Below the pieces are notes generated by a model that was not told the origin of the DNA, did not search any database, and saw only the letters and a list, made by a program, of their open reading frames with translations. Of a stretch of 64,000 nucleotides of DNA, positions 5,090 to 57,859 are shown in pieces. The position numbers and the translations under genes are program-made. How positions within the stretch are numbered: position 1 is the first letter of the stretch; every line of letters begins with the position of its first letter. This DNA is from Octopus sinensis (taxonomy: Eukaryota): positions 21,390,001 to 21,454,000 of the forward strand of contig NC_043010.1 of NCBI RefSeq assembly GCF_006345805.1. The letters are read 5' to 3'.

Positions 5090-6016
5090 CAATATGTTAC
5101 ATTACTCGGTAGTCAAGATAAAACTCTGAGTTTCAGATGCCGAAGTGGAAATCCACAACACCATCTCTTCGGTTATCTGGCTATTTGAAAACGTTATGAA
5201 AAAATACCGTTAAATAAAGGGAAATTACTCTGTTATAACTCTGCTTGCCTGCGTACTTATACATCGCTCGCATTTTTCGTCATAAAAATGATATAAAAAT
5301 ACATAAAAAATATATAAAAATATATAAATTCTTCTTGGGACATAACACAGAAAGCATGTTCTATCTGTTTTCTTTAGGGGACCAAAAACGTAACAGAAAT
5401 TTAGTCACATGTGGGCATGATCCGAAAAGCTCTGTCCTTGTATTTAGACATGTAGTAGGGTCTAAGCTGCTTTTCCAGATAAGCCATCTCTCCATGTCGC
5501 ATAGACCGCACCTTCCGCTACCGTTAGTATAGAGCTTACATCTGGCCAAAATCTTCCATTGTATGTTATAATCGACACCTTTATCTCTTAAAGACCAAAT
5601 ATGATTAGATAATTGTGTCGCTTTTCTTTTGTTCCAGTGCCTAAAGCTCAAAGTGTGGTTATTGAACCTGGCCTTGAAATTTACCCTCTGTAAGGCCCAC
5701 GTATTTCTTCGTCGAAACGGTGTCTTTAGTGGCTTTAGAGTTTACGGTAGCTTCATATATGATGGTCTTGGACATGCAAGCTCCATTTAGCGGGCACAAT
5801 TCTTTATTCCTGCATGAACAGCTGTTTTCTTCTTGTGTTTTTTGTATGTTATGTTTGATTATGTTTTTAAAATTGGTAGTTGAACTAAAACTAATTTTTA
5901 AATTGTGTCTATTGAAGAGTTTCCTATAAGTATGGTTAACTGGAAAATGTCTATCTACCAGTGCTATGAAATATTTACCTATATTGAAGGTCACCTCGGG
6001 TGAGTAAGGGGGCGTA
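5090..6016 (-). mobile_element. 5'-truncated Penelope-like element: GIY-YIG endonuclease C-terminus plus 3' UTR with HHR-like motif
   Basis: Minus-strand translation PPYSPEVTFNIGKYF...CSCRNKELCPLNGACMSKTIIYEATV...KKYVGLTEGKF, frameshift at ~5670, then KARFNNHTLSF...CGLCDMERWLI...LNTRTELFGSCPH, stop at 5361. Flanked by (TA)n on both sides. Confidence 0.85.
5116..5178 (-). ncRNA. Hammerhead-like motif, family H1 (core mutated to CCGAAGA)
   Basis: Minus: AGAUAA CCGAAGA GAUG...CAUC U GAAAC UCAGA GUU^UUAUCU. Stem I AGAUAA/UUAUCU. Confidence 0.55.
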
Positions 6017-6038
6017 ATATATATATATATATATATAA

Positions 6039-6255
6039 CGGAGTAAACACATAAATGTGAAACAAGGTGGAAAAAAGAGTACTCAAATACCAGTGGTAGA
6101 GTAATATGCTTTATTTTAAGCAGCAGAAAATTAAACAAAATCTGTTACTCTGAGTTTCTCGTTGCCGTCCATCAGACAGTTTTTGCTACTGATGAACGGC
6201 AACGAGAAACTCAGAGTAACAGATTTTGTTGAATTTTCTGCTGCTTAAAATAAAG
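6039..6255. mobile_element. PLE-type hairpin insert (family H2) with minimal hammerhead
   Basis: Inverted repeat 6109-6175/6189-6255 with a ~70-nt unpaired tail at 6039-6108, between (TA)n tracts. CTGATGA ACGGCAACGA GAAAC TCAGA GTA ACAG at 6189-6222. Confidence 0.75.
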
Positions 6256-6748
6256 TATATATATATATACATATACATATATATATATATATATATATAT
6301 ATATATAATATATATATATATATATATGTATATGTATATGTATATATATATATATATATATATATATATATATATATATATATATATATTATATATATAT
6401 ATATATGCATACATACATACATACACACATACATACATACATACATACATATATATATGGGTGTTTCTTTGTAATCATATTTGCCTCCCACCACTGCTCG
6501 ACAACCACTCTTGATGCGTTTACGGCCAGTAACTTACAAGTTCGGCGGCGAAAGTGACTGATTGAGAAAATCCCGGTCTTAAAGAAATAATTACTGCCAT
6601 CGATTCATTCCGCTAAAAATATTTCAAGAGTCCAATGACTGCAACAAGTAAATATATATATATATATAATATATATATATATATATATATTATATATATA
6701 ATATATATATATATATATATATATATATATATATATACATATATATAT

Positions 6749-6892
6749 AGGGAGGGTTTACGAAAAAACAAAAGACCAAGACAGGTCGTGTACAAAACAA
6801 ACAGATGTATTAGTATAACGCTCAGGAATAGAAAAAGTCTTTTACATTTCGAGCCTACGCTCTTCTACAGAAAGGGACACAGAAAAACAATG
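6749..6892 (-). mobile_element. Short (TA)n-flanked PLE-like 3' fragment (family H7) with variant hammerhead
   Basis: Minus 6874-6839: CUUU CUGUAGAA GAGC GUAG GCUC GAAAU GUA^AAAG. A related fragment in the opposite orientation lies at 12470-12543. Confidence 0.55.
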
Positions 6893-8136
6893 ATATATAT
6901 ATATATATATATATGTATGTATGTATGTATGTATGTATGTATGTATGTTTGTATGTATGTATGTGTGTGTGTGTGTGTGGTGTGTGTGTGTGTGTGTGTG
7001 TGTGTGTGTATGTGAATGTATATCAACTGAAACATTGTTAATAATCAATAAATGAGCAAAATTGCAAAATTGGGGAGACTGATGAAGAGTTCGGATTGTC
7101 AGTGCCAAAGTGGAATTTACGAATGAAAATATAACGGACAGTAAATGTTGCTGTTGGGAATTGTTGGTGTGGAATTTGTACTGATATAAAATGTCCCTTT
7201 GTATCTGGATTGCGTAACATAAATATTCTGTCATCTATAACAAAAGCTGTTGCATTAAATACTGCGTCCTTCTGAACAGTTAGGGATGCATCTTGCACAG
7301 TTATACTTCCCTTAGGAATGCGGTGTTAACATAGAGAGGAGCGAGTCTCCAAGAAGGAGAAAAATGATAAGGTTTCCGTTCTGCAGATCTAATATTTCAT
7401 TATAACAGGAAAAAAATATATATAATTTAAAATAGAATGTTTTATTGTTGGTTATACTAAGATCGAAATTATCGACACAGGTATAAAAATGTGCCTAAAA
7501 GTAAAAGCAGATCCACCAGGAATCGAACTATGAATCTAAAAGCAAAACCAAGCGATCAATGGAAAGAGATAATATATTTAGTATTGCATATTAGTTTCAA
7601 CTATTTCTTTCATCCACTGAGAATAAAAATAAAAAACTTGTTACGATGGTTCCTTACACAGTCTCTATATTGATATTACAAGATAATAAAACGAAAGTTC
7701 TCTCTTGTAATACTTACCAAACATTCGAAGAAATAATGATATATAAAAATGCAAAGAAAAAAAACAACTTCTTAGACAAGCAATAGCAATTGCAAGAAAC
7801 AAACAAGTAAAACTTCAGTGGTAAATCAAACTGCAGACAAGAAAGAATTGTAGAAAGTTTCATAAGTTGATTATAGCCAAAATGGCGACGTTGTTGAAAA
7901 TGGCGACAACAAGTACGACGAGAAATAATAATTAAAAGATATAATATGATCAAAGTGATTGCAGAGAAGGAATTTGGTTGGTTAAATGAGCGACCACGAG
8001 AACGTGTAGGTTCATGCGACAGCAAACTACTAAGAACAGTATGACGCTACCGCTGAGTATGATAGCGAACAGTAACTACAGCAATATTGGTGTATGCAGA
8101 TGTTTTTTTCCATAAATGTGCTTATACTCACAAATA

Positions 8137-55700: not shown

Positions 55701-56382
55701 ACGAAGAGTAGTTGGGCTTGAGGTGTGCAATGTTTCTGCGATCAAGCAATTATATGAAATGAATACAATTGTATTCCACAGACCAGCAAGTTTTCCGTCT
55801 GATGAGGTGCCAGTGATGCGGCGTAGAATTAATATTGTTGCAACAAGAATCGACCAGGATATTTCAAATTTTGACTAACAACTTTGTGGTGTACAAGGTG
55901 AAGACAGGGACTGGAGAAGCATAGCAAGGTATGACGAAACATTGAAACGTTGACACGAATAATGTATTCTGTATTTTTGCGAACCAAAGTTAAAAAAGGC
56001 ACAGGTAAATCTATAGTATGGGCTTCTTAAAATGAAACTTCTGGTTTCAGATCACATAAAACGATAAGTGGGTTATCTAAAACATTCAGTTGCGCATAAT
56101 AATGACAATCAATAGTAAAACACGACTTGATAAAGGATTGTCAGGAGTCGATGTTCAGAAAAGTAATGGAAATTACTAAATTATAAAAAAATTCTTAAAG
56201 TTAAAAGAGGTCAGATGTTCGTTACTCACATTAGTTAGTTTGTAAGAGATTTAAATTAATGTACACTAAATGTTTACAACAGAGAAAAGATTCATGTAAA
56301 CAATCTATAAACAAGGACCTTACCACGAAAGTCTAAATTGACTTGAGACTGTGGGCATGCATCTAAATCCATATTTAACAAA

Positions 56383-56688
56383 TATATGTGTTTAATAAAA
56401 TCCTCTGTTACGAGATCAATGTATACATGTTTAATATAGTACCCCGTTGTGAGATCAATGTAAATATGTTTAATATCATACCCCGTTGTGAGATCAATGT
56501 ATACATGTTTAATATAGTACCCCGTTGTGAGATCAATGTATATGTTTAATATAGTACCCCGTTGTGAGATCAAGGTATATGTTTAATATAGTACCCCGTT
56601 GTGAGATCAATGTAAATATGTTTAATATAGTACCAGTTGTGAGATCAGTGTATATATGTTTAATATACTACCCTGTTATGAGTTCAAT
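56383..56688. repeat. Minisatellite, ~8 units of 37-39 bp
   Basis: Unit TATGTTTAATATAGTACCCCGTTGTGAGATCAATG(TA)1-2. Confidence 0.92.
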
Positions 56689-56900
56689 TCATTCATTTTG
56701 CTTGATTTACGTCGATGATTGTAATTCTTCCTCATACAACATAAATTCTGCGAAATTATGGTAAGTATTATGGAGAAATATCTATTTCATGAATTTGTTC
56801 AATTTTTGCACTGGAATATATTCAGGAACATAAGTATATAGTACCAATTCGAATGAGAGCGATTTGTGTTTCACTCTTTGCCTCTCTCTCCCTTGCATGC

Positions 56901-57118
56901 ATCTATCTATCTATCTATCTATCTATCTATCTATCTATCTATCTATCTATCTATCTATCTATCTATCTATCTATCTATCTATCTATCATCTATCTATCTA
57001 TCTATCTATCTATCTATCTATCTATCTATCTATCTATCTATCTATCTATCTATCTATCATCTATCTATCTATCTATCTATATATATATATATATATATAT
57101 ATATTATATATATATATA
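56901..57118. repeat. (TCTA)n followed by (TA)n microsatellite
   Basis: Direct reading. Confidence 0.95.
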
Positions 57119-57859
57119 TAATACAAATAAGAAAATGGAGAAATACACCTTAATCAATAATCAACTACCAGATAATACCCAATCACATAATTTATTAAAC
57201 CACTACATATGAACATTGAGGTCAAACATAATAGTATAGAACAAAACAATGTACATCAATGAGTAATATGATACAATAAGTACAGCATGTATAAGTGAAT
57301 ATAAATAAATACAAATATGATATTCATATTTAATTTAGTTTGTACTTCATAATCTCTGAAGAGGCCTTGGGATATTTTTGTAAGTGTCTCATTTGTAACC
57401 GCATATTAACTTATCACACATGGCTAATATGTGCATAATGAGATACCCATATCTGCATGGCTGAAACAGCTGTAAGATGTAGTTTATATTTATATTTGTA
57501 TTTATTTATATTCACTTATACATGCTGTACTTATTGTATCATATTACTCATTGATGTACATTGTTTTGTTCTATACTATTACGTTTGACCTTAATGTTCA
57601 TATGTAGTGGTTTAATAAATTATGTGATTGGGTAGTATCTGGTAGTTGATTATTGATTAAGGTGTATTTCTCCATTTTCTTAATTTGTATTATTAATTTG
57701 TGGTAAAACATTTACCTTTGCCCATATAATACAGTAAATGAATTAATTGCATCGCAATTCTTAACAGTTATGTATTAAATTTGTTGGATGCTTTACTAGC
57801 AGTATATTGGATATATGTTATCCCATGGTGGGTTGCACTCACAACCCCTATCTCAATTT
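57119..57859. mobile_element. PLE-type hairpin insert (family H4): ~200-bp arms, HHR in the loop, 3' tail
   Basis: Inverted repeat ~57119-57318/57492-57692 with few mismatches, tail to ~57859, (TA)n on both sides. Confidence 0.85.
57352..57478 (+). ncRNA. Type I hammerhead ribozyme candidate (H4) with ~100-nt stem II
   Basis: AUCU CUGAAGA GGCC...GGCU GAAAC AGCU GUA^AGAU. Canonical core; palindromic ACAGCUGU stem III. Confidence 0.8.

What the first reader, a model, noticed from the sequence alone, without database searches (positions are those of the whole stretch)
5090..57859. Recurrent (TA)n-targeted fold-back inserts, each carrying a hammerhead ribozyme motif
Seen: inserts at 6039-6255, 11165-11464, 23134-23382, 26058-26613, 38390-43720, 43747-43946 and 57119-57859 belong to five sequence-unrelated families. 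All share one plan: microsatellite | inverted copy lacking the tail | copy with a 50-170 nt 3' tail | microsatellite, and every family has a CUGANG(A)...GAAA-N-UH motif in the sense of the tailed copy. Established: PLEs carry HHRs in their pseudo-LTRs and can form inverted pLTRs with a 3' tail. Inference: most inserts here are only 200-740 bp, non-coding and self-complementary. They may be non-autonomous ribozyme-bearing hairpin retroelements mobilised by PLE RT/GIY-YIG, or the main product of abortive template switching. If transcribed, they would be dsRNA substrates for siRNA production or ADAR editing.
Basis: partly seen in the sequence, partly recalled or inferred. Interest (0 to 1): 0.85.

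Follow-up and report, generated by a model that had tools for sequence, protein, structure and literature searches.

The report
Fold-back Penelope inserts plus one retrozyme
The hairpin-shaped inserts are real: they are truncated tail ends of Penelope-like jumping genes and of one small ribozyme-bearing repeat, each likely folded anew on landing in a TA repeat by copying from two fixed start points, which is largely a known pattern rather than a new self-copying hairpin element.

Summary
All seven inserts exist as described. Four families are 3' ends of protein-coding Penelope-like elements (PLEs): three of Hydra type, one of Neptune/Nematis type. The fifth (26058) is a non-coding 431-nt head-to-tail hammerhead unit, i.e. 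retrozyme-like. Genome samples not selected for hairpins show fold-backs are common (17 of 30 and 17 of 29 inserts) and (TA)n-bound (27 of 30, 28 of 30; background 4-6%). The outer end of the inverted arm is fixed per family, but the centre junction differs from locus to locus, so hairpins are made at insertion, not amplified as units. The inverted arm usually reaches further upstream than the tailed arm (17 of 21), which excludes simple snap-back; both arms share private variants. Best model: two primings at two fixed RNA sites, likely on one transcript. Inverted copy plus tail, hammerheads in PLE ends and (TA)n targeting of Hydra are published, and this scan met the same pattern in three other genomes. 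Newer: the retrozyme carries the PLE insertion signature, and one probable RNA run shows A>G clusters on it (weak hint).

The parts
5088..6016 (-). F6: tail-less 3' fragment of a young Hydra-type PLE (relative of F2) with GIY-YIG remnant at about 5361-6015 and a hammerhead-like motif with a U4C core at about 5107-5182; not a fold-back in its present state
6039..6188 (-). F1 tailed arm (element positions -148 to -1; tail 6039-6106); hammerhead-like core at 6175
6189..6255 (+). F1 inverted tail-less arm (starts at -135, ends at the second site near -69)
11165..11345 (-). F2-group tailed arm; hammerhead-like core at 11322
11346..11464 (+). F2-group inverted tail-less arm with degraded motif (junction position approximate)
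23134..23230 (-). F2 inverted tail-less arm (from -161), core mutated
23230..23382 (+). F2 tailed arm (from -143), truncated downstream of the core
26058..26320 (-). F3 retrozyme-like tailed arm in two pieces (-147..-1 and -423..-302; internal deletion)
26319..26613 (+). F3 inverted tail-less arm (-360..-59); complete hammerhead-like motif with core at 26357
38390..40966 (-). F4 inverted tail-less arm (-2588..-55) with RT and GIY-YIG coding sequence; hammerhead-like core at 38550
40966..43720 (+). F4 tailed arm (-2710..-1), frameshifted RT/GIY-YIG coding sequence; hammerhead-like core at 43506; 54-nt tail
43747..43776 (-). F2 short inverted tail-less arm (about 30-45 nt)
43774..43946 (+). F2 tailed arm (from -169), hammerhead-like motif with damaged stem III
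57119..57318 (-). F5 inverted tail-less arm (-369..-168), no ribozyme
57318..57859 (+). F5 tailed arm (-538..-1); hammerhead-like core at 57356; tail about 170 nt

Best explanation
The inserts are 5'-truncated 3' ends of Penelope-like retroelements and of one 431-nt retrozyme-like repeat, and each hairpin was likely built at insertion, when the element's enzyme would cut a (TA)n repeat and copy RNA from two fixed start sites onto the two DNA ends. Shown: parent families, two fixed 3' ends per family, variable centre junctions, (TA)n flanks, shared variants between arms. Inferred: the GIY-YIG nuclease cuts both strands of (TA)n; one end primes at the tail end (site 1), the other at an AT-rich site 54-170 nt upstream (site 2); both cDNAs run toward the RNA 5' end, usually stop early, and are joined head-to-head through 0-5 nt of microhomology; probably both use one transcript (a fixed-site form of twin priming). 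The ribozyme is a passenger of the element's 3' end and is not needed for the fold. F3 is inferred to borrow the same machinery in trans.
For: Parents: the F4 ORF carries RT and GIY-YIG matches (weak Pfam) and 315 homologues, the best labelled Octopus vulgaris at 97%; long copies of F1, F2, F5 and F6 carry related C-terminal nuclease sequence with a CxCx5C-type linker. Fixed outer end of the inverted arm: 17 of 30 position-ordered F4 inserts end at -53 to -55, 17 of 29 F1 inserts at -58 to -72; 15 of 18 inverted F3 inserts have one end at site 1 and the other at site 2 (hand count of 28 loci). Variable centres with 0-5 nt microhomology in 14 of 17 F4 junctions inspected. Two RNA-templated events: the inverted arm reaches further 5' than the tailed arm in 17 of 21 F4 inserts, and in 5 of 21 the tailed arm stops before site 2 so the arms do not overlap. 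Same source: shared non-majority variants between arms 39 vs 9.3 by permutation (F1, 33 loci), 6 vs 0.8 (F4, 9), 45 vs 10.6 (F5, 11), 12 vs 2.7 (F2, 6); L152 arms 99.83% identical over 1730 nt vs 98.6-99.3% to three other copies. Coupled stops: 7 of 17 longer F4 inserts have breakpoints within 20 nt vs 1.0 expected, p=1e-5; arm ends correlate in the unbiased set (rho 0.55, p 0.01). In vitro, a PLE cuts and extends both strands and starts at two adjacent internal RNA sites, with uncleaved RNA as main template (PMC11167929); 0 of 46 F1 arm ends fall at the predicted cleavage site.
Against: One RNA versus two RNAs of the same source locus, or later gene conversion between arms, cannot be told apart; arm-specific differences are as many as shared ones. 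Near-symmetric stops are only 2 of 21 in the unbiased F4 set; the 7 of 17 come from copies preselected for arms of 281 nt or more. The 5' lead of the inverted arm also follows simply from its starting 55 nt upstream. F1 arm ends pile up over the ribozyme's 5' half (27 of 46 between -118 and -155), which the model does not explain by itself. Target-site duplications cannot be read inside (TA)n. No PLE partner for F3 was identified. No catalysis or transposition was tested; Rfam does not recognise the motifs.
Confidence: 0.75

Rival explanations
1. Dual priming or post-insertion homogenisation: the two arms come from two separate RNA molecules (one per enzyme subunit), and their likeness reflects a shared source locus or later conversion within the hairpin.
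For: Arm lengths have similar medians when counted from their own start sites; arm-specific differences are frequent; one F1 insert has two tailed arms (L274) and two F3 inserts lack the site 1/site 2 pairing expected (L062, L089). Dual priming is a proposed L1 route (PMC2837659).
Against: Excess of near-identical stop points on both arms at otherwise variable positions (7 of 17 vs 1.0) and correlated arm ends are easier with one shared RNA 5' end; the strict one-tail asymmetry needs an extra rule.
Confidence: 0.12
2. One reading: short hairpins are non-autonomous elements that are transcribed and re-inserted as units; junction variety comes from decay of the palindrome apex. Most plausible for F1.
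For: F1 has 4416 exact tail matches, is mostly short, and its arm ends cluster at the 5' edge of hammerhead stem I; a perfect-palindrome junction recurs (L033, L038, L269) and three other junctions occur twice; a few inserts have inverted arms cut short at the outer end (L055, L060).
Against: None of the 27 or so other best whole-hairpin matches shares the window F1 junction; all 17 unbiased F1 fold-backs differ, some far outside the cluster (-30 to -498); solo copies stop in the same zone; long F1 copies carry nuclease remnants; F4, F5, F2 and F3 junctions are spread over hundreds of bases.
Confidence: 0.07
3. Self-priming (snap-back): the new strand folds on itself and is copied back to make the inverted arm, as proposed for rotifer PLEs.
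For: Head-to-head palindromic junctions were read this way in PMC3846280; near-perfect palindromes and short inverted stubs occur here (L134, L264, L249).
Against: Snap-back from the tailed cDNA cannot give an inverted arm holding sequence upstream of that cDNA's end (17 of 21 F4 inserts), nor non-overlapping arms (5 of 21); snap-back from the tail-less cDNA cannot supply the tail.
Confidence: 0.05
4. Assembly artefact: long-read missed-adapter or amplification fold-backs.
For: Such artefacts make inverted repeats (own knowledge); no raw DNA reads over a window junction were laid.
Against: The outer end is fixed per family at dozens of loci, the two flanks are different unique DNA, arms differ by point changes, and junctions are often asymmetric.
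Confidence: 0.01

Closest known systems
Canonical EN+ PLE insertion unit: pLTR, adjacent inverted 5'-truncated copy, tail on one end (PMC8557442; PMC3846280)
   Same: Head-to-head inverted 5'-truncated copy, tail on one end only, heavy 5' truncation, microhomology junctions.
   Different: Tails here are 54-170 nt rather than 30-40 nt; fold-backs are over half of inserts in two unbiased samples; most are too short to hold any ORF.
Hydra clade PLEs (PMC8557442 section 11; Hydra-1_Obim listed for Octopus bimaculoides with (TA)n preference)
   Same: F1, F2, F5, F6 parents: C-terminal GIY-YIG, CxCx5C linker, CxxC and CxH near the end, hammerhead in the 3' region, (TA)n targets.
   Different: Assigned by motif only, no tree with reference sequences; F5 has a 3' non-coding region of about 2.6 kb.
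Neptune/Nematis clade PLEs
   Same: F4: RT then Cx4CxxC linker then GIY-YIG with two Cys and two His.
   Different: Neptune and Nematis were not told apart; core variant with C at position 9.
Non-LTR retrozymes (PMC7229834; bioRxiv 10.64898/2026.07.22.740005)
   Same: F3: 431-nt non-coding monomer, head-to-tail copies, type-I hammerhead-like motif with palindromic stem III.
   Different: Dispersed in (TA)n with two fixed 3' ends and inverted arms, i.e. the PLE integration signature, which the parts of those papers that I read do not describe; circular RNA and cleavage not shown.
L1 twin priming (PMC2837659)
   Same: Second target end primes inside the RNA and gives an inverted segment.
   Different: In L1 the inner site is variable and yields inversion with deletion; here it is fixed close to the 3' end, so both cDNAs usually copy the same stretch and give an inverted duplication.

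Membership tests
EN+ Penelope-like elements (F1, F2, F4, F5, F6) | RT plus GIY-YIG nuclease in the parent element | tested here: met
   F4: RVT_1 E 6e-4 and GIY-YIG E 4e-3, below curated cut-offs, 315 homologues. F6: both domains weakly in L202. F5: GIY-YIG E 1e-3 in L233. F1, F2: nuclease-region fragments only, by tblastn/translation; their RT was not seen.
EN+ Penelope-like elements | Optional 3' tail and adjacent inverted 5'-truncated copy | tested here: met
EN+ Penelope-like elements | Direct pLTRs flanking a full-length ORF | tested here: inconclusive
   The longest F4 copy read (L152, 4.3 kb) is still 5'-truncated with an inverted arm and no upstream direct repeat; 11 long loci were read.
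EN+ Penelope-like elements | RT phylogeny with reference PLE clades | not tested
   No reference sequences were fetched.
Hydra clade (F1, F2, F5, F6) | CxCx5C linker; CxxC and CxH motifs; C-terminal nuclease | tested here: met
   F6 and F5 translations show all three, F2 the linker; F1 only a decayed linker and CxxC. Definition.
Hydra clade | RWK and DKT motifs in the N-terminal RT region | not tested
   No copy long enough was fetched.
Hydra clade | (TA)n insertion | tested here: met
Neptune/Nematis (F4) | CX2-5CxxC linker and CCHH motif in the nuclease | tested here: met
   Read by eye in the ORFs; definition.
Type-I (minimal/dimeric) hammerhead ribozyme | Core boxes, three stems, palindromic stem III | tested here: met
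   Own descriptor 9 vs 0.11 in shuffles; F2/F6 alignment 94.8% cells paired, 5 of 18 pairs with two-sided change, 3 of 500 shuffles as high, slid controls 36-44%. Variants: F4 C9, F6 U4C, window F1 G9.
Type-I hammerhead ribozyme | Match to Rfam hammerhead models | tested here: not met
   single-strand folding z-scores also unremarkable, -1.9 to +0.2.
Type-I hammerhead ribozyme | Self-cleavage | not testable with these tools
   Needs an in vitro assay of dimers.
Non-LTR retrozyme (F3) | Non-coding 150-450 nt monomer in head-to-tail copies, each with a type-I hammerhead | tested here: met
   431-nt unit; 18 of 28 independent loci read through the monomer junction; no PLE protein hit in any F3 locus.
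Non-LTR retrozyme (F3) | Expression as self-cleaved linear and circular RNA | tested here: inconclusive
   Only assembled contigs of runs guessed to be RNA were available.

The most novel reading that the evidence does not exclude
PLE dimers routinely prime both ends of a cut (TA)n repeat on one RNA at two fixed sites, so fold-backs are the main product; a 431-nt octopus retrozyme carries exactly this signature, giving direct genomic evidence that PLE machinery mobilises animal retrozymes; and the thousands of resulting near-perfect hairpins are a notable source of the dsRNA behind the exceptional A-to-I hyper-editing reported for octopus.
Probability: 0.3. Interest if true: 0.65.

Novelty: new member of a known kind. 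Interest (0 to 1): 0.38.

Why it matters
The architecture is known, but how PLEs make inverted copies and tails is still open. These young, abundant families give a large natural data set that rejects snap-back and favours two primings at fixed sites, matching the two initiation sites seen in vitro. The F3 retrozyme bears the same marks, which makes the proposed PLE-retrozyme partnership testable with a defined RNA. If the hairpins are transcribed within introns or UTRs they are ready ADAR substrates in a lineage known for heavy editing.

Tried and rejected
Whole-window Rfam scan at E<=5 was swamped by microsatellite matches to miRNA models (150 of 329 rows shown); gathering scan empty; narrow scans found no hammerhead family. 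A strict hammerhead descriptor missed F1 and F2. Minimum-energy folding of 7 motifs gave no significant z-score. Two short AT-rich DNA queries found no candidates in the own genome and were replaced by exact tail patterns. Self-BLAST detection of hairpins missed close arms and was replaced by mapping to natural linear copies. In one search no F5 ribozyme coordinates were extracted, so covariation was counted only for F2/F6. No RNA holder listed for F3: all rows are guesses or unknown, so nothing is concluded on expression; of 4 runs laid only X4 showed a clear A>G skew. Hammerhead-cleaved RNA as template was rejected for F1 (0 of 46 ends at the site). An apparent F1 tandem (C5, period 185) proved to be two solos separated by (TA)n. 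A search for 'Penelope' with 'twin priming', 'inverted' and 'GIY-YIG' found 0 papers; searches found no paper that tabulates such junctions, but subscription papers (e.g. the 2005-2006 PLE reviews, recalled only) are not in the library. No earlier notes exist for this genome. An exact genome-wide count of single junctions was not run.
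Full report
Setting. The window is G000:C14:21390001-21454000 in a 2.72-Gb animal genome, rich in (TA)n. The best homologue of the large insert's protein is labelled Octopus vulgaris, 97% identical, so an octopus-type host is likely. Positions written as negative numbers count back from a family's tail end.

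Observation. All seven inserts are present with a tail-less inverted arm joined head-to-head to a tailed arm. A hammerhead descriptor with palindromic stem III finds 9 sites in the window against 0.11 in 100 shuffles; it was relaxed, so the six hits within the inserts are partly fitted. Five of seven inserts have a passing motif; 23134 and 43747 are damaged. In 28 distinct F2/F6 sequences the proposed stems are 94.8% paired with 5 of 18 pairs changed on both sides (3 of 500 shuffles as high; slid controls 36-44%), a modest signal because most rows are neutrally decaying copies. Rfam finds no hammerhead, in line with PLE variants being atypical (PMC4209133, parts 1-2 of 4 read).

What the families are. 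F4 (38390-43720) is an inverted pair of RT plus GIY-YIG halves; its copies are about 99% identical with 1358 exact tail matches; its linker and nuclease motifs are of Neptune/Nematis type. Long copies of F2 (L161, L007, L016), F5 (L229, L233; nuclease about 2.6 kb upstream of the tail), F1 (L174, L181; decayed) and of the tail-less fragment at 5088 (F6; L202, 473 aa) encode related C-terminal nucleases with a CxCx5C linker, the mark of the Hydra clade, for which hammerheads and (TA)n targeting are described and an Octopus member is listed (PMC8557442: passages, section 11 and supplement search). F1 has 4416 exact tail matches. F3 is different: a 431-nt non-coding unit whose inserts read through the unit junction in 18 of 28 independent loci (30 fetched, 2 duplicates dropped), with no PLE protein hit. 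It fits the non-LTR retrozyme description (PMC7229834, passages and Discussion; bioRxiv 10.64898/2026.07.22.740005, parts 1-3 of 5, supplements not seen), where PLE mobilisation is proposed from co-occurrence and pLTR similarity.

Are hairpins amplified as units? No. The first 30 exact tail matches along contig C1 give samples not selected for shape. F4: 21 of 30 have an adjacent inverted arm; 17 are complete within the locus and end at -53 to -55; 5 run beyond the 1.5 kb held without showing one and 4 appear solo. F1: 17 of 29 independent inserts (one local duplicate dropped) are fold-backs ending near -65. Centre breakpoints range from -26 to -1409 (F4) and -30 to -498 (F1) and differ at each locus, apart from small clusters at microhomologies. 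Similarity-ranked samples of F2, F5, F3 and F6 agree. Only 7 of the 17 complete F4 fold-backs contain the ribozyme, none on both arms (hand count). Tail ends are followed by (TA)n in 27 of 30 and 28 of 30 against 4-6% background.

How they form. In 17 of 21 F4 inserts the inverted arm holds sequence upstream of the tailed arm's end, and in 5 the arms do not overlap at all. Snap-back copying, proposed for rotifer PLEs (PMC3846280, passages), cannot give this; both arms must be copied from RNA. Site 2 lies in AT-rich patches that resemble the target, and 14 of 17 inspected F4 junctions have 0-5 nt of overlap while 3 have 1-7 extra bases. Arms share non-majority variants well above permutation in all four families tested (only loci whose inverted arm passed the filter: 33, 9, 11 and 6). 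Among 17 F4 inserts preselected for tailed arms of 281 nt or more, 7 stop within 20 nt on both arms against 1.0 expected (p=1e-5), but only 2 of 21 do so in the unbiased set, where arm ends still correlate (rho 0.55) (pairs read by hand). This fits a PLE that nicks and extends both strands, is predicted to be a dimer and starts at two adjacent internal sites of uncleaved RNA (PMC11167929, parts 1-2 of 4). I infer a fixed-site form of twin priming (L1 definition: PMC2837659, passages); two RNAs from one locus or later conversion remain possible. F3 shows the same marks: 15 of 18 inverted inserts have one end at site 1 and the other at -58 (sample biased to copies covering -360 to -58).

Unexplained. 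F1 arm ends pile up over the 5' half of the ribozyme: 27 of 46 lie between -118 and -155, 2 in -75 to -117, 2 in -156 to -193, none at the predicted cut near -105. An RT stall at the structure or a short transcript starting near -150 would both do this; the latter would make F1 a SINE-like mini-element that still refolds at each insertion.

dsRNA and editing. In contigs of run X4 (RNA by guess, another individual, no matched DNA) 15 of 22 listed differences on F3 are A>G and none T>C; 14 of the 15 sites are A in at least 95% of genomic arms, and none of 54 genomic arms has more than 3 A>G; one such contig has an opposite-strand joint. The key contigs have depth about 3 and the three other runs laid show little or no skew, so this is a hint only. 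Octopus has an unusually high hyper-editing rate and share of dsRNA-forming loci, and lizard Penelope is heavily edited (PMC5625713, passages).

What is known. The inverted 5'-truncated copy with a one-sided tail is the typical PLE unit; opposite-strand hammerhead pairs 100-700 bp apart were noted in Schistosoma; three earlier scan notes describe the same pattern in other genomes (unchecked notes, not counted as support). I found no paper on fixed-site twin priming in PLEs or on PLE-type ends in retrozymes, within a library that lacks most subscription papers. Verdict: real, mostly known; new members with useful mechanistic detail; interest 0.38.

Noticed in passing
window 8273 (+), 48451 (-), 4811 (-): Three more sites pass the hammerhead descriptor outside the named inserts; 8273 follows a (CA)n run and 48451 lies about 200 nt from a (TA)n at the end of the LINE. 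Probably further PLE or retrozyme ends.
   Followed up: no
window 45273-48230 (+): Frameshifted LINE with AP endonuclease, RT and C-terminal C2H2 finger (RTE-like; label from own knowledge).
   Followed up: no
window 44146-45210 (-): Mariner-type transposase in two frames (HTH_48, Transposase_1).
   Followed up: no
window 14806-15303 (-): Pif1 helicase fragment, likely from a Helitron.
   Followed up: no
window 56383-56688: 39-nt minisatellite, 8 copies.
   Followed up: no
window 36662-36977 and 24786-24843: Imperfect inverted arrangements of other dispersed repeats without tail or hammerhead noticed.
   Followed up: no
window 5107-5182 (-) and F1 loci such as L046, L197: A U4C change in the hammerhead core is fixed in the young F6 family and in an F1 subfamily, and F4 has C at position 9; activity of these cores is unknown.
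   Followed up: partly
L152:5448-7907: The longest F4 ORF carries a long asparagine-rich stretch before the RT, recalling the N-rich inserts described in rotifer PLEs (PMC3846280).
   Followed up: no
L156:4194-6578 (-): Uninterrupted 795-aa ORF with TPR-like and possibly TIR-like regions (by eye) next to an F5 copy; not scanned.
   Followed up: no
window 43721-43746: The F2 insert at 43747 sits directly in the (TA)n flank of the F4 insert, and F1 at 6039 in the flank of F6: these elements stack in the same microsatellites.
   Followed up: partly
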